The notes below the pieces were generated by a model, which worked only from the letters and a program-made list of their open reading frames with translations, made no database searches and had not been told where the DNA came from. This document shows positions 10,455 through 43,151 of a stretch of 64,000 nt of DNA, one piece after another; within the stretch, counting starts at the first letter, position 1; each line of letters begins with the position of its first letter. Position numbers and translations under genes: made by a program. Source of the stretch: a virus (taxonomy: Duplodnaviria; Heunggongvirae; Uroviricota; Caudoviricetes); the IMG/VR virus record IMGVR_UViG_3300045988_166199, positions 9,605 through 73,604 of that record, one strand, 5' to 3'.

Positions 10455-10529
10455 GATGGTGTAGCTCAGCGGTAGAGCAGTTGGCTGTTAACCAACTGGT
10501 CGGTGGTTCGAATCCACCCACCATCGCCA
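10455..10529 (+). tRNA. tRNA-Asn (anticodon GTT)
   Basis: Cloverleaf: acceptor gatggtg/caccatc, anticodon loop ctGTTaa, T-loop ggttcgaatcc, 3' CCA; sequence differs from host asn tRNAs. Confidence 0.8.
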
Positions 10530-10534
10530 ATTTA

Positions 10535-10621
10535 GGGGAGTTAGTCCGTAGAGGTAGCGGGACAGACTGTAAATCTACTGTCATTGCGACTCGGGTGGTT
10601 CGACTCCATCACTCCCCACCA
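10535..10621 (+). tRNA. tRNA-Tyr (anticodon GTA)
   Basis: Acceptor ggggagt/actcccc, anticodon loop ctGTAaa, long variable arm, ggttcgactcc T-loop, CCA. Confidence 0.8.
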
Positions 10622-10625
10622 AATT

Positions 10626-10701
10626 GCCGGTTTAGCTCAGTTGGTAGAGCGCCTGCCTTGTAAGCAGGATGTCAGCGGTTCGAGTCCGTTAACCGGCACC
10701 A
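10626..10701 (+). tRNA. tRNA-Thr (anticodon TGT)
   Basis: Acceptor gccggtt/aaccggc, D-arm tagctcagttggtagagc, anticodon loop ctTGTaa, T-loop ggttcgagtcc, CCA. Confidence 0.75.
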
Positions 10702-10925
10702 ATACAACGATAAGATCATTACGGTTAATCGTCGTTCATGTGCACAATGACTGGTCGAAAGGTAGTGATCTTACCGTTGTGGTGGATTCGCAGACTGATG
10801 CGATAGCTTTCTTGGATGTTAGGGAAATGCGGCCGCAAATCTTCCCTTTCGCGAGCGGTGATCGTCCGTAGTCCTAATTGGCTGCACCGTATGCCGGAGA
10901 TTCAGTACCGGCCACCACAACGGCC

Positions 10926-11012
10926 GGAGAGTAGGGAGCATGGTGCTCAAGCGGTCTTGAAAATCGTCCCATTGTGCAAACGATGATGGTTCGATTCCAT
11001 TACTCTCCGCCA
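10926..11012 (+). tRNA. tRNA-like gene with long variable arm (possibly tRNA-Ser, anticodon TGA; atypical D-arm)
   Basis: Acceptor ggagagt/actctcc, T-loop ggttcgattcc, CCA end; anticodon stem weak and D-loop short, so isotype uncertain. Confidence 0.5.
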
Positions 11013-11190: not shown

Positions 11191-12402
11191 TCAAAAAAGT
11201 TTTATAAATTCATAATTCTGGTCAATTAAGGATTCAATACACACCATGCAAAAATCTACATCGTTAAAATCAGGTGTGTAATATTCATCCTCATAACATT
11301 CATTTAGACCTTCAATCAATTTTTCTTTAAAAACTCCCCACGTTTCAATATGAACCATTTCCATATAAGGCGCATGTGTATGTACTTGCAATACATCCCA
11401 GGTGTCTATAACCTCGATCCGCGGCTTGCAATTAATTTTTTCTAAATATGCCCTCCCAGAATTGTAAATTTTCGACATTGATGCCCCAAAACCTGATGGT
11501 TGGTAATGAGTGTAAATGTCATAAATTTTTTGTCCTATTCTAGGGAGTTGAGAAGCATTGGATATTTGTGGCGAATGAAAGTATCGCTCTATGGAAGAAA
11601 ACGCAGAAACATTAACTAGAGTAATCGTATATGGTGCTAAAGTTCTCTCGTTCAAATTTCTACATAAAATAGCAAACCCATGGCTATTAGTCTTTTCACC
11701 GTCTGAGGACATTTTTGCCATGCTGGCTTTAATAACATTCAATTTCGAATGTAAACGAGAAGTGGAAGTCGGTTGATTATACATTTCATCATCATACAAA
11801 CATATATGAAACCCGCCAAGATGACGAAATGAGAACTTGAGTGCTTCTTCCGCAATAACTAATTTATTAATATCTAAAGGAGTAAGTGATACGTTACCTT
11901 GTAAATCATAGCAAGGTTCTAAACATAGAAAGTTTTTCTTCTGCCACACGATCATATTAAAAATAAAGTGTCTAACCAAAGGTGGCCAGTCAGGTGATAT
12001 AAGTACATTGGTAATATCTCCATCAGACAAGTATGACAAGTAACTTTTTAGTTCCGCAGCATATGCCACTAGCTCAGTTCCAGCTTCCCTTGTTGGTGTT
12101 GAAAAATTTTTTAACTCAATAAGAACTAAGGATTCATTCTCTGTTGAATAAGCAACGACATCAGGTCTTAATATCTCAGATTTTGTTGCTGAGATATTCT
12201 CATCATCTGTCATTAAATGTAACAATGTTATGTTCTTTAAACAAAACTGATAACTCTCCTTAATTTTTTTCTCTTCGGGTCTTTTCGGATTAAATTCATT
12301 TAATTTATCAATATTGATGATTGAATTATATAATCCATCTTGATCAGATAATTTGTCAATTATCCAATTTTGCATTTCCTTTTCGCTTAAAAATATTGAC
12401 AC
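11191..12402 (-). CDS. hypothetical protein, downstream partner of Abi-like gene (403 aa; AbiGii-like size; possible PD..(D/E)xK-like motif)
   Basis: Co-directional, 26-bp spacing from upstream gene; AT-rich codon usage; segment ILRPDVVAYS...LVLIELK compatible with a nuclease-type D...ExK motif (inference only). Confidence 0.55.
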   Translation of the reverse strand: MSIFLSEKEMQNWIIDKLSDQDGLYNSIINIDKLNEFNPKRPEEKKIKESYQFCLKNITLLHLMTDDENISATKSEILRPDVVAYSTENESLVLIELKNFSTPTREAGTELVAYAAELKSYLSYLSDGDITNVLISPDWPPLVRHFIFNMIVWQKKNFLCLEPCYDLQGNVSLTPLDINKLVIAEEALKFSFRHLGGFHICLYDDEMYNQPTSTSRLHSKLNVIKASMAKMSSDGEKTNSHGFAILCRNLNERTLAPYTITLVNVSAFSSIERYFHSPQISNASQLPRIGQKIYDIYTHYQPSGFGASMSKIYNSGRAYLEKINCKPRIEVIDTWDVLQVHTHAPYMEMVHIETWGVFKEKLIEGLNECYEDEYYTPDFNDVDFCMVCIESLIDQNYEFIKLF

Positions 12403-12428
12403 TAATTAGGCTCCCGTTAAACCAAAAA

Positions 12429-13295
12429 TTAAAAATCTTGCTTTACTTTATCCATGGTCAGAATTTTGCTAATAATTGAAGATTCAAATCCATCTAAACC
12501 TGAGAGAAAGTTAATTAGCTTTTGGATATGTTGTTCTTTAGGTATAAGTATATATTTTATATCATTGAACTCAAAATCAATGCCAAACTTTGAAAATTTT
12601 GAGCTAATTTTTGCTTTGTCATCAGAAGTGATAACACGCTCCAAACTCAGACTAGGCCATAAATCACCAATAAAAGGAGCTGGCACATAACGCCACTCTT
12701 TCTCGTCTGCATATATATAATTCTCTATTGTTTTATTATCTTTTCGCTCTAGCTTGCCTCTGTAATTTTTCATATAACGCAGTAAATTATATAGATCAGA
12801 ATATTCTGCTTTCAATTTCTCAAACTCTATTCTGTTTTTGGTATCTAAATTTCCTCTAGCCTTCCAAAGCGGCACCAACTTATTTTTAATAAGTCGAATT
12901 CTGGCATTGTATTTAGAAAATATTTCACTACTCTTATTCATATATAGAACTGGGTGTAGACCTTTCTTTTCCGCCCAAGACTTAGTTAGCCCAAGACCGA
13001 ATTCTCCATATTTTCCGCTATGATCTCTGATTTGTGATAGTTTTATGTCACAAAACGATACCATTGGTACTGCAAACCTCCTGCGTCCCCCGACTCCTCT
13101 TATTTCCTCGCGAGCAAGAAATGGTTTAAAATATTTCTCAGCCAATATGCTATAGAAAGCATCTTCGTTTTTTGTAAAATGAAACAACGTGGTTGGATGA
13201 AGACTATAAACAGATTCAACATTCGCATCAGGATTTTCAAGGATAGTCATTTTACACCTTGTGGAAAGCCAGTTTAGTTCTGTAAATAGTATCAC
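12429..13295 (-). CDS. abortive-infection-like protein (AbiGi-like, 288 aa)
   Basis: Motifs LFHFT, VPMVSFCDIKLSQ, YGEFGLGL.K.WAEKKGL.PVLY resemble AbiGi-type proteins as recalled from memory; AT-rich; first gene of a two-gene operon. Confidence 0.55.
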   Translation of the reverse strand: MILFTELNWLSTRCKMTILENPDANVESVYSLHPTTLFHFTKNEDAFYSILAEKYFKPFLAREEIRGVGGRRRFAVPMVSFCDIKLSQIRDHSGKYGEFGLGLTKSWAEKKGLHPVLYMNKSSEIFSKYNARIRLIKNKLVPLWKARGNLDTKNRIEFEKLKAEYSDLYNLLRYMKNYRGKLERKDNKTIENYIYADEKEWRYVPAPFIGDLWPSLSLERVITSDDKAKISSKFSKFGIDFEFNDIKYILIPKEQHIQKLINFLSGLDGFESSIISKILTMDKVKQDF

Positions 13296-13399
13296 ACGAC
13301 AGGCGGCTATTCTTCTATCAATAAATGATAGGTAAGCACTTACTTTTTACGCACGTTAACTGTATAGTTCTTTCGGATACTCACTTGAAAGGACTCAAT

Positions 13400-13543
13400 A
13401 TGGGAAATAAATGTAAACATGCGCGTCGCGCATCTCGTCAGGTGCAGAAGTCAAATCCATACATTCACGAGCACTACCACCTCAGCTCTTTCACTAACCG
13501 CTACACGTTCCCCAGCGAAGCGCATAACGAGGCAAAGCAATGA
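13400..13543 (+). CDS. small basic protein (about 47 aa; ORF track 13325..13543)
   Basis: Internal ATG start MGNKCKHARRASRQ; stop overlaps glutaredoxin start (ATGA). Confidence 0.3.
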   Translation: MGNKCKHARRASRQVQKSNPYIHEHYHLSSFTNRYTFPSEAHNEAKQ

Positions 13544-13785
13544 CGATCACTATCTATGGACGAGATAACTGCTCATACTGCAAACGTGCGGTCGAGCTGG
13601 CGAAGCAGCTTCACGGTCACGGTTTTGGCGATTACGAATACATCGATATTGTGTCTGCTGGGATAGACAAAGAGAAATTGAGCGCCCTGGTTGGCAAGCC
13701 GGTGGAGACCATACCGCAGGTGTTCGTAAATGGCGAATCTATCGGTGGCTATACGGAATTCGCCGCTCTGGTGAGTACATTATAA
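13540..13785 (+). CDS. glutaredoxin-like protein (NrdC/NrdH-type)
   Basis: CxxC active site CSYC near N-terminus, 81 aa thioredoxin-fold pattern, C-terminal GG.YTEF; followed by terminator. Confidence 0.8.
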   Translation: MTITIYGRDNCSYCKRAVELAKQLHGHGFGDYEYIDIVSAGIDKEKLSALVGKPVETIPQVFVNGESIGGYTEFAALVSTL

Positions 13786-13788
13786 TTA

Positions 13789-13811
13789 AGAGCCGCTTAG
13801 GCGGCTTTTTA
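13789..13811 (+). terminator. rho-independent terminator
   Basis: agccgc ttag gcggc ttttt. Confidence 0.7.
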
Positions 13812-13977
13812 CATGAAAGTGTGCGCTCAAATCAACTATATCTATGAAAAGGACAGTTATAAATATTAAAAATATCTAAAATCCCTTCCGATATATGAAT
13901 TATCAGATTAAAATTTCACACAATGTGCTTTTAATGAGTTATTATTTCACCTTTTGTTGCCTTTACAGTTTAGGTTT

Positions 13978-14967
13978 TCACGTCACGATTATTCTTTTAC
14001 CTTGTCTATCTTTAATCTCAGTCACATACCCTTTCAGTGCCTCTTCATTTAGTAACAGAGCCTCTAATTTCATATCACCAATGATAATGGAGTATATAAG
14101 GTTATAATATGCACATAGTTTTTCATGTATTTCAGGAGAAATGTTTCTACCACGGTGATAATCCATTCCATAAACCGAATCAATTCCTGAGTTCACTATC
14201 TTCATCTGAATTTCAAAAAAATCATTATTTAAATCAAAGTAAACAATAGGGACCTCATATCTTCTGCTAGAAAAATCCATTGGTGATAGATAGTTAAGAC
14301 CATTTGCACTGACCTTCACTTGAATTCCAGCCTGTATACCTGAATTCGACGTTGGAGCAGAAATAAGTAATTGAGAAAGTGGGTCTCGTTTGTCTATCCA
14401 CACAATGTCCCGTTGAGTATCATTAGGTTGATATTTAGTAGGATAGTTAATTTTCGTATAGTTGAGTCCAGTCCCAACAGCTTTATAATTAGACAAACTA
14501 TCTGTGAAAGGGGTATATCTCTTTGCTAATAATGCCCAGTTTTCATTTTGTTTCGCGTTTTTTTCACATTCTTCAACAATGAGTGCTTCCGCAATTTTAC
14601 CTAATATTCTCATAGTTGTTTTATGGGGATCTAGTTCGATAATGATGTTTGACTTGATCACTCCTTCTTCATTAATACCAACAAGACCTAACTCTTTATC
14701 CATGAGTTCAAATAAATTTTCCCCATGCTCAATTGCTAACAAAGCTGAAGGTCGTGATAATAATGAAGAGTTATTCCAATCTCCGAGGGAGATATCCAGA
14801 CCTAAATCAATACCTTTAGTCGTCACTACTAGCTGAGGTTTGGGAGGCGTAGCCCCTAATAACTCAGATAGCGTGTTGACTTCCGGTGTCTCTTTTATCA
14901 TTTTTCTTATCCTGTTGCAGCGATCGCATGACAATACTATAAAACCAGCCATTTTCAAGTAAATCAA
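13978..14967 (-). CDS. hypothetical protein (329 aa ORF; likely start at internal Met MIKETPEV with AGGA RBS)
   Basis: Long AT-rich ORF between glutaredoxin and integrase; no confident domain. Confidence 0.55.
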   Translation of the reverse strand: MIYLKMAGFIVLSCDRCNRIRKMIKETPEVNTLSELLGATPPKPQLVVTTKGIDLGLDISLGDWNNSSLLSRPSALLAIEHGENLFELMDKELGLVGINEEGVIKSNIIIELDPHKTTMRILGKIAEALIVEECEKNAKQNENWALLAKRYTPFTDSLSNYKAVGTGLNYTKINYPTKYQPNDTQRDIVWIDKRDPLSQLLISAPTSNSGIQAGIQVKVSANGLNYLSPMDFSSRRYEVPIVYFDLNNDFFEIQMKIVNSGIDSVYGMDYHRGRNISPEIHEKLCAYYNLIYSIIIGDMKLEALLLNEEALKGYVTEIKDRQGKRIIVT

Positions 14968-16911: not shown

Positions 16912-17124
16912 ATGAACACCACTATTTCCAGCCTAATCGCTCTTGAGATCGGACACGTACAAAAATTAGCTGTTGAGTGTGTAACAGACATCCTTACCGA
17001 TCTACCGAATGAGCAGATTCAGGTTGGTGTGAATGACACCACTGGCTTTATATTCGAACTTAACAACAAACGCTTCACGCTTCTCAATACCGGCTCCGGG
17101 TCTTTAGCCGTCAGAATCTGTTAA
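16912..17124 (+). CDS. hypothetical small protein (70 aa)
   Basis: ORF in intergenic region, followed by hairpin ctgcgcgaa...ttcgcgcag. Confidence 0.3.
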   Translation: MNTTISSLIALEIGHVQKLAVECVTDILTDLPNEQIQVGVNDTTGFIFELNNKRFTLLNTGSGSLAVRIC

Positions 17125-17222
17125 CCCCTCTTCTCCCTGCGCGAATGGCTTAGTTCCCTGTTCGCGCAGTGCTACATTAAACACACTAGTAAATAATTTG
17201 TTTTCATAACAAAGGATTAGCC

Positions 17223-19331
17223 ATGTCTAAAAAACGTTCCATCAAAGAGGTTCAGGACTTCCGTGACAGTGTAAAACGAGTAGTCGCTCTCCTTTCAGGT
17301 AAAAACATCCCTGTTGCAGAACGAGGGGACGACGCTTATGTACGCTATAACGATGATGGAGAGCCAATTCTCGTAAACATCCCATCAATCCCGGATAACG
17401 CAACACCGGCATTGATGAATGCTGTGCGCGGATTTCTCGATCATGAGGTTGCTCACATTTTGTTTACCGATATTCGTGTGTCCAACAAAATGAGAGAAAA
17501 AGGACGCGTTCCTTCCTGGTCGCTATGGAATGCCTTAGAAGACGTGTTCATCGAGCGAAAAATGGGTCAGGTCTTTAACGGAACAAGACGTAATCTGATG
17601 GCAACTCAGCGCCTTATAATCGAAAAAGTCTTTAAACCAAAGGCTTCAGAGGCTATTGCTTATTGTGGCAAAGATCAGCGCGCGCTTTTTCTAAACTTCT
17701 TTCTCTGTCCGGTTGTAAGAGCCTGGGATGGCCAAGCACCGTTCGTAGATTTCATGGATGAATACTGGCCTGTCATTGAGAAACCAATTTCATTATTAAA
17801 AAAACATGGTATCGATGTGGCCGCGCGTAACATGTCCTGCACCGAGGATTGTGTAAAGGTGGCTGCGACCATAGCTAAGATCCTCAAAGACACTGAAAGT
17901 GAAAGCAAAGGTAAGGAGTCAGCTCCGGGAAAAACTCCCGATCCTTCAGACGCTGACCAAGCGGATTCCTCTGGAGAAAGTAATGAAGACAATGAAGATC
18001 ACAAGACACATGAGATGCTAGATAACCACATATCTATAGATGATGAGTCACAAGGTAAGTACATACATGATAATAACGATAGTGATGATTCAGATAATTC
18101 TGAATCATCAGAAACAATATTCGATGATACAAAAAATGATAAAGAGGTATTAGATTCTGATACTTCCAATAGCGCGACGACAGAAGCAACTACCTCGGAT
18201 CACGAAAAAAGAAAAACGGCAGAAGACGGCTCTTCAGACATTCCCACTCCGTCCAAAATGAGTCTGGAAGAGGCTTTAGAGGAGCTTGATAGCATGGAAG
18301 ATGAAGTCGGAGGCATGACAGAAGATGCACTATCCGAAACGATTAAAAGCGAGTTAACAGAAAGCTCGAAAAGCGAATACAGGCCATACAATCGCTCATA
18401 CGACTTCATCGGTTCGATTGATCAGGCAGAAGCCCATATCAAACGGCTTATTAAAACATTCTCCGATATTGATTTAGGTGGATATCCAATCAGCCGTTAT
18501 CGCATCGTTCCTGAAGGCAACCAACTCTTCGACAAATATATTGAAAAGCATCTTTCGTCAGGTGTTTCGTCGACGCTGGCAAAAGACCTGGAGCGTGCAA
18601 TTGCAAGCAGAAACAGAGTTCAGTTTATACCGGGCCAGCGTCGGGGGCGCATTCATGGTTCTAGTATCTACAGATTAGCAATGAATGATGATCGCGTGTT
18701 TCGTAAAAAAGAAGAATCTAAGGCCGTTAACGCCTGTGTTCAACAAGTGATTGATTTATCAGGTTCAATGAGCGGCGAAACGATTAAACTGGCTCTTGCA
18801 AGTGCATATACCATCGCCGATGCGCTTGATCGAATAAATGTTCCCAACATTATCACCGGCTTCACAACATTTGGTAGTCATATGGCAGCAGGAGAGCTTA
18901 AGGCAATCAAGTATGAGTTCTCTCGCTTTGAATCTTTAATGCTACCTATCATCAAAAATTGGAATGAAAAGGCCAATTCTCGCGAAGTTCGCTCACGTAT
19001 GGGGTGCGTAGGCTACACATTCCCACTTCTTAATAACGTGGATGGTGAAAGCATAGCCAGCCTTGCATCGTTATTTTCTGGTCGCATGGAGGACAAGAAG
19101 ATCATGCTTGTTCTAAGCGATGGCGCGCCGTGGGCTGTTGGGAGAGGTTTTGACGCTCATTTGCGTTCGGTTGCGAAGCAAATTGAAACGCAGACTGACA
19201 TTGATTTGATGGCAATTGGCATCATGACTGACGCACCGGAGAGATTTTACGCAAACCATGCCCTGGTAACGAGCGTTGATAGTCTTGGTTCATCTGTAGT
19301 TACTGAACTATCTCGTATCATTTTGAAGTGA
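17223..19331 (+). CDS. CobT-like protein with C-terminal von Willebrand factor A domain
   Basis: C-terminal MIDAS motif VIDLSGSMSG; long acidic D/E/S-rich linker; N-terminal HExxH (DHEVAHILF); followed by AAA+ partner. Confidence 0.7.
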   Translation: MSKKRSIKEVQDFRDSVKRVVALLSGKNIPVAERGDDAYVRYNDDGEPILVNIPSIPDNATPALMNAVRGFLDHEVAHILFTDIRVSNKMREKGRVPSWSLWNALEDVFIERKMGQVFNGTRRNLMATQRLIIEKVFKPKASEAIAYCGKDQRALFLNFFLCPVVRAWDGQAPFVDFMDEYWPVIEKPISLLKKHGIDVAARNMSCTEDCVKVAATIAKILKDTESESKGKESAPGKTPDPSDADQADSSGESNEDNEDHKTHEMLDNHISIDDESQGKYIHDNNDSDDSDNSESSETIFDDTKNDKEVLDSDTSNSATTEATTSDHEKRKTAEDGSSDIPTPSKMSLEEALEELDSMEDEVGGMTEDALSETIKSELTESSKSEYRPYNRSYDFIGSIDQAEAHIKRLIKTFSDIDLGGYPISRYRIVPEGNQLFDKYIEKHLSSGVSSTLAKDLERAIASRNRVQFIPGQRRGRIHGSSIYRLAMNDDRVFRKKEESKAVNACVQQVIDLSGSMSGETIKLALASAYTIADALDRINVPNIITGFTTFGSHMAAGELKAIKYEFSRFESLMLPIIKNWNEKANSREVRSRMGCVGYTFPLLNNVDGESIASLASLFSGRMEDKKIMLVLSDGAPWAVGRGFDAHLRSVAKQIETQTDIDLMAIGIMTDAPERFYANHALVTSVDSLGSSVVTELSRIILK

Positions 19332-19426
19332 TTAGAATAGCCTTAATGATAAGTAATCACTTACGATATTTGATGGTATATTTATATAAGAAGTTGAAAG
19401 CTCATTAGAAAACAAAGGAAAAACGC

Positions 19427-20662
19427 ATGACTACTACTGCACTGCAAAATGAAAAAAATCCTTCTGATTACCTTGTTTGCAAGTGGTGCGGAAAATCATT
19501 TCACTATTTTAAGTCCCATGTAGCCAATGGTAATTGCGAGGGCATTCCTGAGTCAGTAAAAGATGCCGATCCTGACACCGTACTGAAAATGTACACAACG
19601 CAGTTTCCAGATGAGCCAACGCTATCGAAAAAGGCACTTGATGCAATTCAAGCTAAACGTGCCGAGCAAATAAGCGAAATGGCCAAATCATCTGGCGTGA
19701 CCAATAGCCCAGGCTATACAGGCACAGTTGAGTACAAGACAGATCTGGTCGCAGCTCACGAACTGCTAAATGTAACGGTGAAAGAACTCGGAACAAAACG
19801 TGGGACGCCGCTCATGGTTAGCGTCAACGTCAATACGCCGTTTCCAGAGTTCGTTCCAGAAGTGAAGAAGGGATACGTATATGGCGACTTCGAACTGATC
19901 AAAGACATTTTCATGATGCTTGAACTTGGCATACCAGGCTATTTGTGGGGTCATGCAGGAACAGGCAAATCTTCATTGCCTACACAACTATGTGCTTTGC
20001 TCAATCGTCCGTTAATCCGTGCCCAACATACAGCATCAATGGAAGAGGCTCATGTTACGGGACAAATTCTGGCGCGTGATGGCTCTACGTATTTCGAGCC
20101 TGGCTTGCTTGCGCTCGCAATGAAGCATGGCTGGGTTTACCTCGCGGATGAATACGACTTTGCGTTTCCACAGATTCTTGGCGTGTATCAGCCAGTGCTG
20201 GAAGGTGAAGCGTTGGTCATCAAAGAGGCGACTCAAGAATGGCGTCGCATTACTCCGCATGAACGGTTTGCTTTCATTGGCACTGGCAACACGAACGGAT
20301 CTGGTGATGAAACCGGCTTGTACCAGGGTACAAACATCCAGAACGCCGCTAACTTTTCGCGTTTTGGCATCGTTTCGAATGTGAAATACATGAGCAAAGA
20401 GGCAGAGATCAACATGTTGATAAATGCTGGCATCGTGGATGAATACGCTGAAAAGATGGTTAAGTTTGCCGGTATCGTTCGCGATGGATACGAAGAACAC
20501 CTGATCAGTCAGCCGATTGGCCCTCGTGAACTTTTGTTGTCGGCCAAGATTGGAATGATGCGAGGCGACTTTGTGACAGGTATTGAGCGTTCTTTCATTA
20601 ACAAACTCCCTTCAGCTTCTGCGCAAGCGGCACGTGAAGTTGTTCAAAAAATATTTGGTTAA
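19427..20662 (+). CDS. AAA+ ATPase, CobS/MoxR-like
   Basis: Walker A GHAGTGKSS, Walker B VYLADEYD; N-terminal Cys-rich CKWCGK...H...C segment. Confidence 0.75.
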   Translation: MTTTALQNEKNPSDYLVCKWCGKSFHYFKSHVANGNCEGIPESVKDADPDTVLKMYTTQFPDEPTLSKKALDAIQAKRAEQISEMAKSSGVTNSPGYTGTVEYKTDLVAAHELLNVTVKELGTKRGTPLMVSVNVNTPFPEFVPEVKKGYVYGDFELIKDIFMMLELGIPGYLWGHAGTGKSSLPTQLCALLNRPLIRAQHTASMEEAHVTGQILARDGSTYFEPGLLALAMKHGWVYLADEYDFAFPQILGVYQPVLEGEALVIKEATQEWRRITPHERFAFIGTGNTNGSGDETGLYQGTNIQNAANFSRFGIVSNVKYMSKEAEINMLINAGIVDEYAEKMVKFAGIVRDGYEEHLISQPIGPRELLLSAKIGMMRGDFVTGIERSFINKLPSASAQAAREVVQKIFG

Positions 20663-20664
20663 TC

Positions 20665-20868
20665 GTGCGTAAAGGATGTTTCGGCTCTCTTATCGCTGCT
20701 TCTGAAACTGGCAAGGCTTGTCTGGTGTGTCCAGACAAGCCCGATTGTCACCAATCAGCAAAAGAAGTTGCGATTTCGATGTATGGGAAATTCGTAGGCT
20801 TCCCCAATGACAAAATCAAAAAAACCAGAAAGGTAAAAACACATGAAGGCTCTGATGGTTCGAACTGA
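20665..20868 (+). CDS. small Cys-rich hypothetical protein (67 aa)
   Basis: ORF between AAA+ gene and polymerase; CxxC-like cysteines; overlaps polymerase start. Confidence 0.3.
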   Translation: MRKGCFGSLIAASETGKACLVCPDKPDCHQSAKEVAISMYGKFVGFPNDKIKKTRKVKTHEGSDGSN

Positions 20869-23800
20869 CTTCTCTCTTGGGGAGTCGGCTCTAAAAGCAG
20901 AAAACGCGGTGAAGATTGCCAGAGAAGCTGGCTACACCGCTGTAATTTCGGCAGATAGCATGAATATTGCGAGTGTTATTCCACTACAACGTGCCGCTGG
21001 TGACGACATGGCGGTTATTTGTGGTGTGAAACTAAACATTGTTGATGATCCCACATACGAGCACCGGGCTAAACTTGCTAAAGAGTCTATGGGATGTATG
21101 GAATCATTAGAGCGTGGGCGGAACTACTCCTTTACCGCTCTAATTAAAAATGAGCAGGGATATCGAGACATCTGCGAACTAATGACGGCGGCCAACACAC
21201 GAGAACAGTTCTACTTTGTACCGCGTCTCTCGCTCGAACAGTTGGTTTCTACATATGCCAAAGGCAACATCATCCTGCTCACTGCCGACATCGGTAGCGT
21301 GTACCAACGCAACGATTTTGCAAAAATCATAAGCTCACTGATTACAGCGGGTGGAAAAAACAACTTCTATAGTGTGGTTTATCCGCACCCTACCCCATTC
21401 TACGACCAGATTAACGTCCGGGCGATGAAAGTCGCCAGCGCACTGAAAATAGAGCCAGTAGCGTTCTATCCCGCTTATTACGAATCGATCGACGATGCAG
21501 ACATTAAAGACATTGCGCACATGGTTACGAACAACATCAAAATCGACCAGCCGCATCGTCTGCGTATCCCCCACCAGCGAGATAACGCCGTCAATGGTCG
21601 CCGCCATCTCCTTGAGGCGCTGAAAGCCTTCTCCGTTCGCATGGATGTGCCGGTAACAGCCGCAATGGCCTCAACAACGCAGGATACCATTATCGATGCC
21701 TGCACATGGCGCTGGCATGAATTGCCACCAGCACTGCCAAAGATGGCAGACGACGAGCCTGCAACGCTGATGAAACTGGCCGTTGCTGGGCTGCGTAAAC
21801 GTCTTACCACAAAAGAGTTTGGCTACACACCACCGGCTTCTGAGAACAGGGTTTATGTTGAGCGACTTAAGTACGAAATGGACACGCTTACTCGCCTGGG
21901 ATTTTGTGGTTACTTCCTGATGGTACGCGATCTGATGAATCACAGCCGTGAAACTGGCATTCCTGTCGGGCCTGGTCGTGGTTCCTCCGCTGGCTCTTTG
22001 GTGGCATGGTGCATAGGCATAACCAACGTCGACCCTATCCGTCACGGTCTTCTGTTTGAACGTTTCATCAACCCTGAGCGTCTCGACTTGCCAGATGCGG
22101 ACTTGGACTTCAGCCAGGCACGTCGCCATGAGGTGATCGAGTATCTGAATGAACGCTACGGCGAAGATTACGTTGCAGGCATTCCGAACTTCACCTACCT
22201 GGGCGCGGCCTCTGCACTACGTGACACCGCTCGTATTTATGGTGTGGAGTCCGCAGATATGGCGGTATCAAAAGAACTGAAGAACGTCGAGGATGATAGC
22301 CTTCCATTGGAAGAGCTGCGCGAACAACTGGCAAGCCTCGACAAATACGCGACAAAATATCCTGATGCATTCAATGCAGCCTGCAAGTTACAAAGCCTTA
22401 TGCGTGGCTATGGTAGACATGCGGCAGGGATGATCGTAGCAGGTGTTCCTCTGACAGAACGAACACCGGTTGAACGACGTGGTGACGCGCGTTGTATCGC
22501 ATTTGACAAGCGTTACTGCGAGGCTATGGGCCTAATTAAGCTGGACGTACTTGGCCTGGCGACTCTCGATTTGCTCGATAGTGCAAAACGCTACATTAAA
22601 GAGAACACAGGTGAGGATATCAATCTTGATGCCATTTCTCTTGAAGATCGCAAGGTGCTGGATGGTTTTGCTGCTGGGTACACTCAAGGTGTTTTCCAGC
22701 TTGAATCAGGCCCAATGCGCAAGCTGCTTAAAGATTTAGGTGGTGGAATTGAGCCAATGAGCTTTAAAACGGTCGTTGCTACGACTGCGCTCTTCCGGCC
22801 GGGGCCAATTCAGTCAGGCATGTTGGATGATTATGTTTCTGTCGCCAAAGGCTTTATGACGCCGGAATCATTACACCCCGTTCTTGATGAACTTACCGCA
22901 GAAACAAATGGCGTGATTCTCTATCAGGAACAGACGATGAACGCGACTCGATTGCTTGCCGGCTTCACAATGGCTGAAGCTGACGGCGTTCGTAAAGCGA
23001 TCGGCAAAAAAGACATGGAGAAAATGAAGAGCATGGGTGAGAAGTTCATCGTTCAGGCTCAAGCTGGCTGGATCGACGTTGAGCTGGAAGATGGCACTAC
23101 ACAGCGCATTCACCGTGCGGAACATTTTAAATGCGAAGACGGAACTCTGAAAACTGTCGAAGAGGCACTTGAGTTCGGTGCAAAACTACCTATAAACGCA
23201 GTACGCGTTACAGCGTCACATCCAGGGCTATCAGAGATGAAAGCGAAGGAGATCTGGACCGCATTCGAAAAGAATGGTGCCTACCAGTTCAACAAATCAC
23301 ACTCTGTTGCTTACTCCTTAATCAGTTATCAATCTATGTGGTTGAAAACTCATTATCCCGCAGAGTTTTTCGCTGCTGCTCTCACTATTCTTGGCGAAGA
23401 TAAACACCAGGGGCTGGTTAAAGATGCGCTGACCTATGGTATTCGCGTATTGCCACCAGACGTTAACATGTCATCTAACCGAATCGAGATCCGCACGCTT
23501 GAAGATGGCAGCCAGGTGCTGTATGCGCCCTTCTCTGCTGTGAAGGGGTGTTCTGAGAATGGCTGCCAGGCCATCATGAGAGCGCGAGAAAAGGTTGGCG
23601 GCAAATTCGAGTCACTTGCGCAATTCGAAGAAGCTGTCGAGAAACGTGCCTGTAATAGTCGAGTGCGCGAATCGCTGCAAAAAGTAGGGGCGTTTGCATC
23701 CATCGAGCCAGGTAGTCTGCCAGCAACTGATCCAGAGCGCCTCCGCGACCAGGCTGAATTGATGGGAAACCTTGTCATAGATGCAGTTAAAGCCTCACGT

Positions 23801-24361
23801 CCGTTTGAGATGAACCCCAAACGTTCGGCTGAGATTAACGTGCTCATGACACGGATGGCGGCTGAAATGGGCTTAGGTGATGAACTAATCCGCCCCAGCA
23901 TTGGTATTAAGCCGAAAATCATGATCATTCTGGACAATGCGAACGGCAATGATGCTCGAACCGGTTACTTTATGGAGAACGGATACGACGATTTTAAGGC
24001 CAAGCTATTGACGGCTGGAGATTTACGCATGGGCGATCTCTATGTCACAGGCGTTTGCAAGAAGGTTAAAGACAAAGAAAAAGACTACACCAAAGACGAG
24101 ATCGGCCAGTTCACCGACTTTATGCGTGAAGAGATCAATCTGGTGCGTCCGACCTATGTGCTGACGTGTGGCAGCCGGGCAACGTCGCTCTTCAACAACA
24201 AGATCAAACCATCCGACCTGGTTGGACGCAAAGAGTATCTGCCGGAGCTGGATGTGACTGTTTTCTACGGATTTAACCCGAATATTTTGTACTTTCGCCC
24301 AGAGGAAGGCGAAAAGCTGGAAGCAATTCTGGCAGAGGTAGCGGAGACTATTAGCAAATGA
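20843..24361 (+). CDS. dnaE: DNA polymerase III alpha subunit-like replicative polymerase (PHP domain, DnaE family)
   Basis: Signature GPGRGSSAGSLVAWCIGITNVDP...LLFERFINPER..PDADLDF; 1172 aa. Confidence 0.95.
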   Translation: MKALMVRTDFSLGESALKAENAVKIAREAGYTAVISADSMNIASVIPLQRAAGDDMAVICGVKLNIVDDPTYEHRAKLAKESMGCMESLERGRNYSFTALIKNEQGYRDICELMTAANTREQFYFVPRLSLEQLVSTYAKGNIILLTADIGSVYQRNDFAKIISSLITAGGKNNFYSVVYPHPTPFYDQINVRAMKVASALKIEPVAFYPAYYESIDDADIKDIAHMVTNNIKIDQPHRLRIPHQRDNAVNGRRHLLEALKAFSVRMDVPVTAAMASTTQDTIIDACTWRWHELPPALPKMADDEPATLMKLAVAGLRKRLTTKEFGYTPPASENRVYVERLKYEMDTLTRLGFCGYFLMVRDLMNHSRETGIPVGPGRGSSAGSLVAWCIGITNVDPIRHGLLFERFINPERLDLPDADLDFSQARRHEVIEYLNERYGEDYVAGIPNFTYLGAASALRDTARIYGVESADMAVSKELKNVEDDSLPLEELREQLASLDKYATKYPDAFNAACKLQSLMRGYGRHAAGMIVAGVPLTERTPVERRGDARCIAFDKRYCEAMGLIKLDVLGLATLDLLDSAKRYIKENTGEDINLDAISLEDRKVLDGFAAGYTQGVFQLESGPMRKLLKDLGGGIEPMSFKTVVATTALFRPGPIQSGMLDDYVSVAKGFMTPESLHPVLDELTAETNGVILYQEQTMNATRLLAGFTMAEADGVRKAIGKKDMEKMKSMGEKFIVQAQAGWIDVELEDGTTQRIHRAEHFKCEDGTLKTVEEALEFGAKLPINAVRVTASHPGLSEMKAKEIWTAFEKNGAYQFNKSHSVAYSLISYQSMWLKTHYPAEFFAAALTILGEDKHQGLVKDALTYGIRVLPPDVNMSSNRIEIRTLEDGSQVLYAPFSAVKGCSENGCQAIMRAREKVGGKFESLAQFEEAVEKRACNSRVRESLQKVGAFASIEPGSLPATDPERLRDQAELMGNLVIDAVKASRPFEMNPKRSAEINVLMTRMAAEMGLGDELIRPSIGIKPKIMIILDNANGNDARTGYFMENGYDDFKAKLLTAGDLRMGDLYVTGVCKKVKDKEKDYTKDEIGQFTDFMREEINLVRPTYVLTCGSRATSLFNNKIKPSDLVGRKEYLPELDVTVFYGFNPNILYFRPEEGEKLEAILAEVAETISK

Positions 24362-24494: not shown

Positions 24495-24525
24495 AAAAAA
24501 CCCGCCAATCGCGGGTTTCATTTAT
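24495..24525. terminator. bidirectional hairpin terminator
   Basis: aaaaacccgc caat cgcgggtttcattt between convergent polymerase and opposite-strand gene. Confidence 0.7.
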
Positions 24526-41903: not shown

Positions 41904-42008
41904 CATATGGTGGGGTATATCCCCACCTTCTCTTTGATTTGTAAGCCTTGTTTAAACAAATAAGATAACAACTTGTTTAAACATATCAAAAAGCAAAAGG
42001 AAAAACAC

Positions 42009-43151
42009 ATGTCATATTCAACGTTCCGTTTGGGTGCTAATGATGCAACCAAAGAGCCTATGTTCCTCGGACAATCTGTCAACGTGGCACGTTACGATCA
42101 GCAAAAATACCGTGATTTTGAAAAGTTGATTGAACGTCAATTGTCTTTCTTCTGGCGGCCGGAAGAAGTTGATATTTCGAGCGATCGTATCGACTTCAAC
42201 ACGAAGCTGCGGGACCACGAACGTCACATTTTTCTGAGCAATCTCCGTTATCAAACGTTACTCGATTCAGTTCAGGGACGTAGCCCAAATGCAACGTTGC
42301 TGCCGCTTATCTCTATTCCTGAACTGGAAACGTGGGTTGAAACATGGTCTTTCTCTGAGACTATCCATAGCCGCAGCTACACCCACATTATTCGTGGCAT
42401 GGTGGACGATCCGAGCATTGTTTTTGACGGTATTGTTACGGATGAAGAAATCATCAACCGAGCGATCAGTATCTCTGCTGAATATGACAGGCTTTATGGG
42501 ATGACCTGCGAGCGCCAGTCGTTAGGTGAGAAAGAGTTTGAACGTCTGTACGTAAATGAATATGGCTGGGAGCCATACCCTTTGCACCGTCAGCTTTTCC
42601 GCACGTTGGTGTCCATTAATGCGCTTGAGGCGATCCGTTTCTATGTAAGTTTTGCATGTACGTTTGCCTTTGGCGAACGGAAGTTGCTTGAGGGTAACAC
42701 CAAAATTATGCGCTTTATTGCCCGTGATGAAGCTCTGCATTGCGAAGGAACTGAACGCATGATCCGCTTCATGCGTACCGGTCGCGAAGGTTTATTGTGG
42801 AAAGAGATTGCTGCTGATGAAGAAAACGTCATTTACGACACCATGAAATCAGTCGCCGAACAAGAAATGAACTGGGCAGACTATCTCTTCAAAGACGGTT
42901 CGATGATTGGTTTAAACGCGGATATTCTGAAGACCTATGTAAAATACCGAACCAATCTGGCTATGAATCGTCTTGGCCTGAAGGCTTTATTTCCAGAAGT
43001 TACCACTGATCCGCTGGTCTGGATGAACAAGTGGTTGTTAACCGACACACTGCAAATTGCACCACAAGAGGCAGAGCAAAGCACATATCTGGTAGGTCAG
43101 ATCGATTCTACCGTGGATAAGGCTTCTCTAAGCCAGTTTGCAGACCTGTAA
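42009..43151 (+). CDS. nrdB: ribonucleoside-diphosphate reductase beta subunit
   Basis: Diiron/tyrosyl-radical motifs (e.g. [18 protein letters not shown]); start at ATG 42009 after AAAGGAAAAACACATG. Confidence 0.9.

What the first reader, a model, noticed from the sequence alone, without database searches (positions are those of the whole stretch)
17223..20662. CobT-like vWA protein with HExxH motif paired with an AAA+ ATPase
The 702-aa protein combines an N-terminal HExxH (DHEVAHILF), a long acidic D/E/S-rich linker and a C-terminal vWA domain with MIDAS motif DLSGS. It is followed by a CobS/MoxR-like AAA+ ATPase with an N-terminal Cys-rich extension. The function of such pairs in phages is unresolved; vWA plus MoxR pairs also occur in conflict systems.
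Basis: partly seen in the sequence, partly recalled or inferred. Interest (0 to 1): 0.5.

Follow-up and report, generated by a model that had tools for sequence, protein, structure and literature searches.

The report
Phage CobT/CobS pair, protease motif intact
This is the phage-plasmid version of the CobS/CobT motor of the vitamin B12 cobalt chelatase, but it keeps a working-looking zinc-protease site that the cellular enzyme has lost and sits in a DNA-replication operon of a host with no partner chelatase, so it is probably not a B12 gene; its real job is still unknown.

Summary
Window 17223-19331 encodes a 702-aa CobT-like protein: N-domain with HEVAH at residues 74-78, an acidic 156-aa linker, and a vWA domain with MIDAS DLSGS at 511-515. 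Window 19427-20662 encodes a 411-aa CobS-like MoxR-class AAA+ ATPase.

The window is an SSU5-type phage-plasmid. The pair is 100% identical to E. coli plasmids and occurs in 219 of 5426 complete E. coli genomes.

HExxH is present in 143 of 147 aligned sequences (the query plus 146 full-length representatives at 27-62% identity), together with conserved E106, D107 and E111. Alphaproteobacterial CobT, whose N-domain was reported to have an M48C-like fold, has DSMAL[K/R] at that position, so the site is dead there. Both proteins score far below the NCBIfam CobT/CobS cut-offs.

No CobN or B12-dependent enzyme appears in the 27-kb and 50-kb stretches read from phage Cyrano, and the window's ribonucleotide reductase is class I.

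The ATPase's "Cys-rich" N-terminus is a divergent Ros/MucR-type zinc finger. The genes always lie in a replication module: cobT, cobS, a small ORF, then dnaE.

Best reading: an early, ATP-driven vWA/MIDAS remodelling machine with an active zincin. The gene family and the peptidase-vWA plus MoxR architecture are already published; the function is untested.

The parts
17223..19331 (+). cobT-like gene, 702 aa: zincin-like N-domain, acidic linker, pre-vWA 'shaft' segment, vWA/MIDAS domain
   Evidence: ORF. Pfam CobT 1.6e-26 and CobT_C 3.2e-83. PHROG 1576, 5e-297. NCBIfam CobT equivalog 74.5 bits against a cut-off of 759.
17223..17894 (+). N-terminal domain, aa 1-224: helix, three-stranded sheet, then a helix carrying HExxH (zincin, M48-like)
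17442..17456 (+). HEVAH, aa 74-78: putative zinc-binding and catalytic motif
   Evidence: H74, E75 and H78 are each 97% conserved in 147 sequences. Alphaproteobacterial CobT has S, M and K/R at these positions.
17529..17555 (+). N103-x2-E106-D107-x3-E111 on the next long helix: candidate third ligand or site-orienting acids
   Evidence: Conservation is 93%, 99%, 97% and 99%. D107 is present in all 143 HExxH-bearing sequences and is lost in 3 of the 4 that lost HExxH. It is Q in alphaproteobacterial CobT.
17895..18362 (+). Acidic D/E/S-rich linker, aa 225-380, predicted flexible
   Evidence: 47% D+E+S, net charge -37. Only 23-40% identical, and 141-243 aa long, among SSU5-like relatives whose domains are 66-78% identical. 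Brucella CobT has a disordered linker of about 90 residues.
18363..18692 (+). Pre-vWA segment, aa 381-490, equivalent to the CobT 'shaft' that enters the CobS ring
   Evidence: The family profile aligns to Brucella CobT residues 226-618, with conserved G471, G475, L482 and F493. That span includes Q373-D414, deleted in the Brucella crystal construct and unseen in apo-CobST (paper text).
18693..19328 (+). vWA domain, aa 491-702, with MIDAS D511-x-S513-x-S515, N605 and D633 (DLSGS = nt 18753-18767)
   Evidence: all five MIDAS residues are invariant.
19427..20662 (+). cobS-like gene, 411 aa: MoxR-class AAA+ ATPase with an N-terminal zinc-finger extension
   Evidence: ORF. AAA_5 1e-15. PHROG 249, 2e-105. 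Brucella CobS 1.2e-25. NCBIfam CobS equivalog 86 bits against a cut-off of 558.
19472..19627 (+). Ros/MucR-type zinc-finger module, aa 16-67: C18-x2-C21-x9-H31-x5-C37, invariant H26, then Y56..FP..P..S67
   Evidence: Family alignment. 92 of 114 homologues carry CxxC..H..H. Pfam ROS_MUCR is above its cut-off in homologues P0441 (28.9 bits) and P0483 (28.8 bits; cut-off 25.4). The profile's best PDB hit is Ros87, 2jsp, E 0.006, with the ligands aligned. The AF2 model has pLDDT 81-94 over residues 12-88.
19847..20659 (+). AAA+ module, aa 141-411: Walker A 175-182 (nt 19949-19972), Walker B D241-E242, C-terminal Q407-K408-I-F-G
   Evidence: Alignment to Brucella CobS residues 38-315. Invariant G175, G178, G180, K181, D241 and E242. 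Q407 and R/K408 align to Brucella Q311 and R312, which contact CobT_N.
16912..17124 (+). 70-aa ORF (phrog_2627), syntenic first gene of the block in enterobacterial relatives
20665..20868 (+). 67-aa Cys-rich ORF (phrog_6337), always between the cobS-like gene and dnaE; overlaps the dnaE start by 26 nt
   Evidence: Whether it belongs to the system is not known.
20843..24361 (+). dnaE-like DNA polymerase III alpha, the downstream gene of the same block
   Evidence: Pfam PHP, DNA_pol3_alpha, finger and HHH_6. Synteny holds wherever the locus extends far enough downstream. A terminator-like hairpin follows at 24497-24519.

Best explanation
The two genes encode the viral form of the CobS-CobT motor. 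CobS-like is a MoxR-class AAA+ ring. CobT-like is its vWA/MIDAS adaptor, which docks on the ring through its N-domain and through a pre-vWA 'shaft'.

In this element the pair does not work as a cobaltochelatase. Unlike cellular CobT, the adaptor's N-domain keeps a complete zincin site (HExxH plus D107). The ATPase carries a Ros/MucR-type zinc finger.

The pair is most likely transcribed with the replication genes, from the block that starts beside the repressor and ends after dnaE. I propose an ATP-driven protein remodelling and processing machine that serves genome replication or host takeover:
1. The MIDAS site captures an acidic residue of a client protein.
2. ATP hydrolysis in the ring pulls on the client through the shaft and the acidic linker.
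3. The zincin domain cuts the client.
4. The zinc finger may hold the machine on DNA.

Shown here: the domain architecture, motif conservation, the contrast with cellular CobT, synteny, and the absence of B12-related partner genes in what was read.

Inferred: complex formation, proteolysis, timing of expression, DNA tethering, and the identity of the client.
For: 1. Homology to the CobST motor, but not orthology. Pfam CobT, CobT_C and AAA_5 match. The best PDB hits are Brucella CobT and CobS. NCBIfam equivalog scores are 74.5 against 759 and 86 against 558.

2. The catalytic-type motif is under selection. H74, E75 and H78 are 97% conserved; E106 99%, D107 97%, E111 99%, across 147 sequences at 27-62% identity. 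D107 co-varies with HExxH: 143/143 against 1/4. The hypergeometric probability is about 8e-6, not corrected for phylogeny. The N-domain is as conserved as the vWA domain, while the linker is not.

4. Residues that form the CobS-CobT_N interface in Brucella (CobT D80 and N130; CobS Q311 and R312) correspond to D73 (100%), N124 (99%), Q407 and K408 (both at least 90%, R in most). The shaft segment and MIDAS are also conserved.

5. Nothing for a chelatase to serve. The 27-kb and 50-kb stretches read from the closest annotated phage list no CobN and no B12-dependent enzyme. The window's ribonucleotide reductase is class I, with large and small chains. From established knowledge, E. coli has no de novo corrin pathway and no CobN.

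6. Position. The order cobT, cobS, small ORF, dnaE holds in every SSU5-like locus that extends far enough. It sits next to ligase, primase and helicase in phages nickie and RHEph10, and next to primase, helicase and PolA in ICP2. No terminator-like site on the + strand between the genes; a strong one lies after dnaE.

7. Zinc finger on the ATPase.

8. The general MoxR-vWA mechanism, and a published prediction of a peptidase-vWA plus MoxR pair in phages (PMC7159879; PMC7824862).
Against: - No experiment on any viral cobST was found.
- The predicted coordinates could not be inspected, so the third metal ligand is not established.
- HExxH could bind a metal for delivery rather than for catalysis.
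- Four of 147 sequences have lost the motif. Cellular CobT works with a dead site, so catalysis is not needed for the motor itself.
- ICP2-type pairs lack the zinc finger and E106.
- The window's zinc finger is a C2HC variant below Pfam's threshold. DNA binding is untested.
- Early expression is inferred from gene order only. The promoter scan was uninformative.
- The hhalign link between viral and cellular N-domains is weak on its own (probability 3.8%, E 0.011). Homology rests on the Pfam CobT match.
Confidence: 0.4

Rival explanations
1. Metal-cofactor insertion chaperone. Like NorQ/NorD, CbbQ/CbbO or CoxD/CoxE, the pair would mature a phage metalloenzyme, for example the PHP domain of the adjacent DnaE or the class I ribonucleotide reductase. 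The HExxH site would hold or hand over a metal ion rather than cut peptides.
For: CobS-like is a MoxR/AAA_5 ATPase, with a CbbQ_C domain in most homologues and NorQ and CbbQ among its PDB hits. NorD also appears among the profile's PDB hits. The gene is tightly linked to dnaE in SSU5-, nickie- and RHEph10-type phages. MoxR-vWA pairs are classically metal-insertion helpers. In Brucella the MIDAS lies next to the metal-handling subunit.
Against: ICP2 carries the pair beside a PolA-type polymerase, with no dnaE in the 12.7 kb read. An HExxH with an invariant Glu, plus a co-varying acid, is the signature of catalysis rather than storage. The cellular metal-inserting CobT has lost exactly this site.
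Confidence: 0.25
2. Auxiliary metabolic gene. Viral CobS and CobT join a host CobN to raise cobalt insertion and B12 supply during infection, the current reading in the literature.
For: Homology to CobS and CobT, with conserved MIDAS, shaft and interface residues. The hypothesis is stated in PMC8651126. Some hosts of cobST phages, such as rhizobia and Pseudomonas, do make B12 aerobically (own knowledge).
Against: Scores are far below the equivalog cut-offs. No CobN or B12-dependent enzyme is annotated in the stretches read from the close relative, and the window's reductase is class I. E. coli, Klebsiella, Salmonella and V. cholerae lack CobN (established knowledge, not tested here). It does not explain why the protease motif is kept in viruses and lost in cells, nor the zinc finger. 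The genes behave as core genes rather than niche-dependent ones in cyanomyophages (PMC9983427).
Confidence: 0.08
3. Virion assembly chaperone with peptidolytic processing of structural proteins, as proposed for jumbo phages and by analogy with the MoxR-vWA pair of the Acidianus two-tailed virus.
For: The same architecture was described and this role proposed in PMC7824862.
Against: In every lineage examined here the genes lie inside the replication module and are co-oriented with ligase, primase and polymerase genes, not with head or tail genes. In this window the block starts about 250 nt from the divergent repressor gene.
Confidence: 0.1
4. Conflict system: a vWA-MoxR defence or counter-defence module carried by the plasmid.
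For: vWA-MoxR pairs form the core of ternary conflict systems (PMC7159879). A genuine defence gene, AbiGi, lies 4 kb upstream in the window.
Against: PADLOC gives only a spurious DrmE match on the acidic linker. No VMAP, FtsH or beta-propeller third component is present. The pair is conserved with fixed synteny in lytic and temperate phages of many hosts, which is the behaviour of a core gene, not of a variable island.
Confidence: 0.07

Closest known systems
Aerobic cobaltochelatase motor CobS-CobT (Brucella melitensis CobSTN; PDB 9uka, 9ujv; bioRxiv 10.64898/2026.07.21.739949)
   Same: Same two-gene pair. The ATPase is of the same AAA+ class. CobT has the same three parts: an M48C-like N-domain, a disordered acidic linker, and a vWA domain with a shaft. 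MIDAS residues and CobS-CobT_N contact residues are conserved.
   Different: Scores are 7-10 times below the equivalog cut-offs. HExxH and D107 are intact here and dead in cellular CobT. The ATPase has an N-terminal extension of about 100 residues with a zinc finger. No CobN is seen in the element, and the genes lie in a replication operon.
MoxR AAA+ plus vWA pair with an N-terminal metallopeptidase, jumbo phage group 2.2 (Iyer et al. 2021, PMC7824862)
   Same: Same predicted architecture, and the same idea of a chaperone with peptidolytic action.
   Different: Those genes were linked by the authors to virion assembly. Here the context is replication. No direct sequence comparison with their examples was possible. 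The zinc finger on the ATPase is not mentioned in the passages read.
Viral cobST clusters of cyanomyophages, pelagiphages and haloarchaeal tailed viruses (PMC8651126; PMC9983427)
   Same: Same family. BFVD fold hits include haloarchaeal virus proteins and many 'CobT' or VWFA phage proteins. The cyanophage 'peptidase' family phrog_459 matches residues 72-128.
   Different: They are interpreted in those papers as B12 auxiliary genes. In enterobacterial hosts that reading has no partner enzyme.
NorQ/NorD, CbbQ/CbbO, CoxD/CoxE, RavA/ViaA (MoxR-vWA maturation pairs)
   Same: A MoxR-class ring with a vWA/MIDAS adaptor that remodels a client.
   Different: None of these adaptors is reported, to my knowledge, to carry an intact zincin domain.
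AAA+-coupled zincin proteases (FtsH; Wss1 or SPRTN with Cdc48/p97) - analogy only
   Same: An ATP-driven ring coupled to an HExxH protease. SPRTN and Wss1 act on DNA-bound proteins. ArdC and SprT-like proteins appear among weak fold hits.
   Different: No sequence relationship was shown. Here the protease sits on a vWA adaptor, not on the ATPase.
Ros/MucR prokaryotic C2H2 zinc finger (Pfam PF05443; Ros87, PDB 2jsp)
   Same: The family consensus IxCxxCG-x8-H-x4-H..(T/S)xExY..(F/W)P fits the Ros87 ligands and spacing.
   Different: In the window the fourth ligand is Cys at +5 rather than His at +4, and a 12-residue insert follows. It is fused to an ATPase rather than forming a stand-alone DNA-binding regulator.

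Membership tests
Cobaltochelatase subunit CobT (bona fide, TIGR01651) | Architecture: CobT N-domain, acidic linker, vWA with MIDAS | tested here: met
   Pfam CobT 1.6e-26 and CobT_C 3.2e-83. MIDAS residues are invariant.
Cobaltochelatase subunit CobT (bona fide, TIGR01651) | Full-length score above the NCBIfam equivalog cut-off | tested here: not met
   74.5 bits against a cut-off of 759; only residues 434-697 match.
Cobaltochelatase subunit CobT (bona fide, TIGR01651) | A CobN partner and a corrin substrate pathway are available | tested here: not met
   No CobN or cob/cbi gene is annotated in the stretches read from phage Cyrano, about 77 of 108 kb. Absence from the E. coli host rests on established knowledge and was not tested here.
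Cobaltochelatase subunit CobT (bona fide, TIGR01651) | Cobalt insertion activity together with CobN | not testable with these tools
   Needs biochemistry or complementation.
Cobaltochelatase subunit CobS (bona fide, TIGR01650) | Full-length score above the NCBIfam equivalog cut-off | tested here: not met
   86.1 bits against a cut-off of 558.55.
MoxR-class AAA+ plus vWA pair | AAA_5/MoxR-type ATPase with intact Walker A and B, encoded next to a vWA protein with an intact MIDAS | tested here: met
   The pair is adjacent in every locus long enough to show it.
Zincin metallopeptidase (gluzincin, M48-like) | HExxH on the helix that follows a three-stranded sheet | tested here: met
   AF2 secondary structure. 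The motif is 97% conserved.
Zincin metallopeptidase (gluzincin, M48-like) | A third metal ligand on a downstream helix | tested here: inconclusive
   E106, D107 and E111 are conserved on helix 98-117, and D107 co-varies with HExxH.
Zincin metallopeptidase (gluzincin, M48-like) | Fold similarity to solved zincins | tested here: inconclusive
Zincin metallopeptidase (gluzincin, M48-like) | Zinc binding and peptide hydrolysis | not testable with these tools
   Needs purified protein.
vWA-MoxR ternary conflict systems (Kaur et al. 2020) | A third core component (VMAP, FtsH-like, beta-propeller) and effector domains in the neighbourhood | tested here: not met
   The neighbours are a 70-aa ORF, a 67-aa ORF and dnaE. 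PADLOC gives no real hit.
Ros/MucR zinc finger (PF05443) | C-x2-C-x9-H-x4-H followed by the conserved helix; Pfam gathering score | tested here: inconclusive
   Homologues P0441 and P0483 pass (28.9 and 28.8 bits against 25.4). The window protein does not; its best match is zf-C2H2_6 at E 0.08. The window has C18-x2-C21-x9-H31-x5-C37 and aligns throughout with the family. The profile's top PDB hit is Ros87 at E 0.006.
Phage metallopeptidase-vWA plus MoxR pair (Iyer et al. 2021) | A vWA protein with an N-terminal metallopeptidase domain, encoded next to a MoxR ATPase in a phage genome | tested here: met
   for the architecture; the published description is. Sequence relatedness to their example proteins was not tested.

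The most novel reading that the evidence does not exclude
Viral CobST is an ancestral-type, DNA-tethered, AAA+-driven zincin protease. The Ros/MucR finger places the ring on DNA. The MIDAS domain grips a DNA-bound protein, such as a host nucleoid silencer, a replication block or a protein-DNA adduct. The N-domain then cleaves it, clearing the template for the phage DnaE replisome. On this reading, the cellular cobaltochelatase motor is a derived form in which the protease died and its surface was reused to hold CobN.
Probability: 0.12. Interest if true: 0.8.

Novelty: new member of a known kind. Interest (0 to 1): 0.5.

Why it matters
cobS and cobT are among the most widespread "auxiliary metabolic genes" reported in phages. 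They are close to one copy per genome in marine cyanomyophages and are routinely counted as vitamin B12 genes in virome studies, yet their function has never been tested (PMC9983427; PMC8651126).

If the viral proteins are an ATP-driven protease or remodeller of the replication module rather than chelatase subunits, many metabolic interpretations of viromes would need correcting.

The same contrast would suggest how a metabolic motor could have arisen from a protease-bearing machine, or the reverse.

This element offers a tractable test system. The same pair sits on roughly 110-kb phage-plasmids in 219 of 5426 complete E. coli genomes. Inducible relatives exist as isolated phages: Cyrano, PhiR41_1 and SSU5.

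Tried and rejected
- A single-sequence PDB search with the N-domain gave only HLA and superoxide dismutase noise. A profile of the N-domain did not reach Brucella CobT_N either. It gave one short, unexplained match to AcrIIA26.
- Foldseek against the PDB found nothing significant for the N-domain model. The CobT_N crystal structure seems not to be in that copy.
- The afdb50 library was not available.
I repeated it with homologues from the protein search.
- The homologue search with a Brucella CobT fragment returned only short fragments. These were still enough to read the motif position.
- hhalign between viral and cellular N-domains is weak (probability 3.8%). I use it only for register, together with the Pfam CobT match.
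- The PADLOC DrmE hit (E 5.6e-4) spans residues 340-533, largely the acidic linker and pre-vWA segment. I rejected it as compositional.
- The promoter scan found fewer sites than in shuffled sequence, so it says nothing about the start of the operon.
- The search for related loci returned mostly SSU5-like loci. More distant contexts came from tblastn against isolated phages.
- I considered and rejected: a prophage remnant of a host chelatase (no host copy, core-gene behaviour), and a defence island gene (fixed synteny).

Full report
**What is there**

The window carries two co-oriented ORFs exactly as reported. One spans 17223-19331 (702 aa) and the other 19427-20662 (411 aa), with 95 nt between them.

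The first matches Pfam CobT (residues 9-294, E 1.6e-26) and CobT_C, the CobT vWA domain (492-701, E 3.2e-83). The second matches AAA_5 (173-293). PHROGs place them in phrog_1576 (unknown function) and phrog_249 ("porphyrin biosynthesis"). The HExxH region also touches phrog_459, a "peptidase" family.

The single HExxH (HEVAH, residues 74-78) would be expected about 0.02 times by chance. Residues 225-380 are 47% D+E+S with net charge -37. DLSGS lies at 511-515. Walker A is GHAGTGKS at 175-182 and Walker B is DE at 241-242.

**Where the window comes from**

The 3.4-kb stretch is 96-97% identical to Escherichia phages PhiR41_1, Cyrano and CMS-2020a. It is 100% identical to 112-kb plasmids of E. 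coli from cattle, pig and human. It is found in 219 of 5426 complete E. coli genomes, always on plasmids. Protein-level relatives include Salmonella phage SSU5 and Klebsiella phage-plasmids. The window is therefore part of an SSU5-type phage-plasmid.

NCBI names the two products "cobaltochelatase CobT-related protein" and "AAA family ATPase". Older records say "porphyrin biosynthesis protein". The Cyrano record calls them "dimethylbenzimidazole phosphoribosyltransferase" and "cobalamin synthetase", a confusion with the unrelated Salmonella CobT and CobS.

**Relation to the real chelatase**

The nearest solved structures are Brucella CobT (E 7e-17 with the single sequence, 2.5e-65 with a family profile) and Brucella CobS (1.2e-25). 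Yet both proteins score far below NCBI's equivalog cut-offs: 74.5 against 759 bits and 86 against 558 bits. They are homologues of the chelatase motor, not orthologues.

A 2026 preprint on Brucella CobSTN (10.64898/2026.07.21.739949) reports the following:
- CobT_N binds the small subdomain of CobS, through CobT R34, R76, D80 and N130 and CobS Q311 and R312 among others.
- CobN sits between the two CobT domains, close to the MIDAS.

By alignment the following are kept in the viral family:
- the MIDAS residues D511, S513, S515, N605 and D633, all invariant;
- the shaft segment, with G471, G475, L482 and F493;
- the contact residues D73 (100%), N124 (99%), Q407 and R/K408 (at least 90%).

A physical CobS-like/CobT-like complex of the Brucella type is thus a reasonable inference.

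**The HExxH test**

An exhaustive search of 1.84 billion representative proteins gave 5022 hits at E up to 1e-3. Of the top 150, 146 are full length and share 27-62% identity with the query. With the query, 143 of 147 sequences carry HExxH at the same position.

In the alignment H74, E75 and H78 are 97% conserved. On the next long helix N103 is 93%, E106 99%, D107 97% and E111 99% conserved. The four exceptions (KEVAN, HQVAL, QQVAR, SQVSQ) carry four different sequences at the motif, which suggests separate losses.

D107 is present in all 143 motif-bearing sequences and absent in three of the four that lost the motif. The hypergeometric probability is about 8e-6, uncorrected for shared ancestry.

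Twenty-one N-terminal fragments of alphaproteobacterial CobT, several named "cobaltochelatase subunit CobT" by their sources, read RGxGDSMAL[K/R]xACHD at that position. So H74, E75 and H78 are replaced by S, M and K/R, and D107 by Q, while E106 and E111 are kept. Vibrio phage ICP2, only about 26% identical, still has HECYH.

The motif is a selected feature of the viral family, and it is precisely what distinguishes that family from the cellular chelatase subunit.

**Fold**

An AlphaFold2 model of residues 1-228 (41-sequence alignment) has mean pLDDT 92 and pTM 0.87. Its order of elements is helix, three short strands, then a long helix carrying HExxH, then a helical bundle. That is the zincin arrangement.

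In the viral structure library the domain recurs in many phage and haloarchaeal-virus "CobT" or VWFA proteins.

Among SSU5-like relatives the N-domain is as conserved as the vWA domain (0.75-0.77 against 0.78 identity). The linker is hypervariable in sequence (0.23-0.40) and in length (141-243 residues).

**The "Cys-rich" extension**

The extra N-terminal residues of the ATPase contain C18, C21, H26, H31 and C37. Across 114 homologues, 92 have CxxC...H...H. The family consensus is IxCxICGAxxHxIxxHLKxxHPxxTxExYxxxFPDAPLLS.

Two homologues pass Pfam's threshold for ROS_MUCR (28.9 and 28.8 bits; cut-off 25.4) and four more match weakly. The window protein itself does not pass. A profile of the segment finds Ros87 (2jsp) as its best PDB hit (E 0.006), with the Cys and His ligands in register.

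The AlphaFold2 model of the whole ATPase (pLDDT 86.5) predicts residues 12-88 with confidence, as a short hairpin plus helices joined to the AAA+ body by a flexible segment.

The window has a C-x2-C-x9-H-x5-C variant with a 12-residue insert. ICP2 and Brucella CobS lack the module. I read it as a divergent Ros/MucR-type zinc finger. Whether it binds DNA is untested.

**Context**

In every related locus that extends far enough, the order is: 70-aa ORF (in the enterobacterial group), cobT-like, cobS-like, 67-aa Cys-rich ORF, dnaE. The 67-aa ORF overlaps the dnaE start by 26 nt. No terminator-like site on the + strand separates the genes, and a strong bidirectional one follows dnaE at 24497-24519. 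The block starts about 250 nt from a divergent HTH repressor gene, next to an integrase gene.

In Pseudomonas phage nickie and Rhizobium phage RHEph10 the pair lies between the DNA ligase gene and dnaE. In ICP2 it precedes primase, helicase and a PolA-type polymerase.

So in four lineages the pair travels with replication genes, not with head or tail genes.

**Is there anything for a chelatase to do?**

The two stretches read from phage Cyrano (27 and 50 kb of 108 kb) list helicase, primase, ligase, recombination proteins, class I ribonucleotide reductase, ThyX and DHFR. They list no CobN, no cob/cbi gene and no B12-dependent enzyme.

The window's own reductase has the class I large and small chains. 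E. coli lacks the de novo corrin pathway and CobN. That is established knowledge and was not tested here.

The published idea that viral CobST hijacks host CobN (PMC8651126) therefore has no obvious partner in this host. It also does not explain the retained protease motif or the zinc finger. The literature itself states that it is unknown whether phage cobS acts in cobalamin synthesis (PMC9983427). I found no experiment on any viral pair.

**Interpretation**

The best-supported reading (confidence about 0.4) is a MoxR-class ring with a vWA/MIDAS adaptor that works as MoxR-vWA pairs generally do: the vWA domain captures a client peptide, and force is transmitted through a charged linker (PMC7159879). 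Here it is additionally equipped with an active zincin, and it is expressed with the replication genes.

The rivals are:
- a metal-insertion chaperone for a phage metalloenzyme such as DnaE (0.25);
- a virion assembly chaperone, as proposed for jumbo phages (PMC7824862) (0.10);
- the B12 auxiliary-gene reading (0.08);
- a conflict system (0.07). PADLOC gives nothing real and the third component of such systems is missing.

The remainder is "something else".

**Novelty and verdict**

The genes are already in public records. The viral cobST family and the peptidase-vWA plus MoxR architecture have both been described, so this is a new member of a known but functionally uncharacterised kind.

I did not find the following stated in the papers searched:
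- the clean contrast between a conserved HExxH/D107 site in the viral family and a dead site in cellular CobT;
- the Ros/MucR-type finger on the viral ATPase;
- the fixed linkage to the replication block in a host without CobN.

Together these turn a long-standing annotation habit into a testable question in E. coli. Interest 0.5.

Noticed in passing
window 11191-14967 (- strand): A low-GC (0.36) island lies between the tRNA cluster and the integrase gene. It carries an AbiGi homologue at 12429-13295 (PADLOC 5e-47, Pfam 4.8e-25). Next to it are an unassigned 403-aa ORF (11191-12402, in the position of AbiGii) and an unassigned 329-aa ORF (13978-14967). Phage Cyrano has only one small ORF there.
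   Followed up: partly
window 20665-20868 (+): A 67-aa Cys-rich ORF (C5, C19, C22, C28; phrog_6337, unknown function) is always wedged between the cobS-like gene and dnaE in SSU5-like elements. It overlaps the dnaE start by 26 nt. It could be a third component of the pair or a DnaE accessory factor.
   Followed up: partly
related loci, e.g. L006, L009, L018, L044-L057 (dnaE region): dnaE is one 3519-nt ORF in the window. In many related IMG/VR loci the matching ORF ends after 2364 nt. This suggests a split or interrupted polymerase gene in part of the family.
   Followed up: no
window 17125-17222: The 98-nt gap upstream of the cobT-like gene holds a 9-bp-stem hairpin, CTGCGCGAA-N15-TTCGCGCAG, with no T-run. 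Its role is unknown.
   Followed up: no
window 24497-24519: A strong bidirectional terminator-like hairpin (8-9 pairs, T-runs on both strands) lies 136 nt after dnaE and closes the block.
   Followed up: no
window 10455-11012: Four tRNA genes: Asn-GTT, Tyr-GTA, Thr-TGT and Ser-TGA. The annotated Cyrano record lists only Asn, Thr and Ser at the matching place.
   Followed up: no
CobT-like residues ~91-139 (window ~17493-17639): A profile of the viral N-domain matches anti-CRISPR AcrIIA26 (PDB 9zq6_B, residues 40-92) at E 0.0035. The match covers the 'NxVEDxFIE...F.G..N' helix. It is short and unexplained.
   Followed up: no
L001 12001-15440 (phage Cyrano OV696614.1, CYRAN_47 and CYRAN_48): The public record names the two genes 'dimethylbenzimidazole phosphoribosyltransferase' and 'cobalamin synthetase'. 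Those are the functions of the unrelated Salmonella CobT and CobS, so this is a name-collision error.
   Followed up: yes
window 39588-43151 (+): The element encodes its own class I ribonucleotide reductase: a large chain with an ATP-cone, and a small chain. By the Cyrano annotation it also has ThyX and DHFR. It is self-sufficient for dNTP supply without B12.
   Followed up: yes
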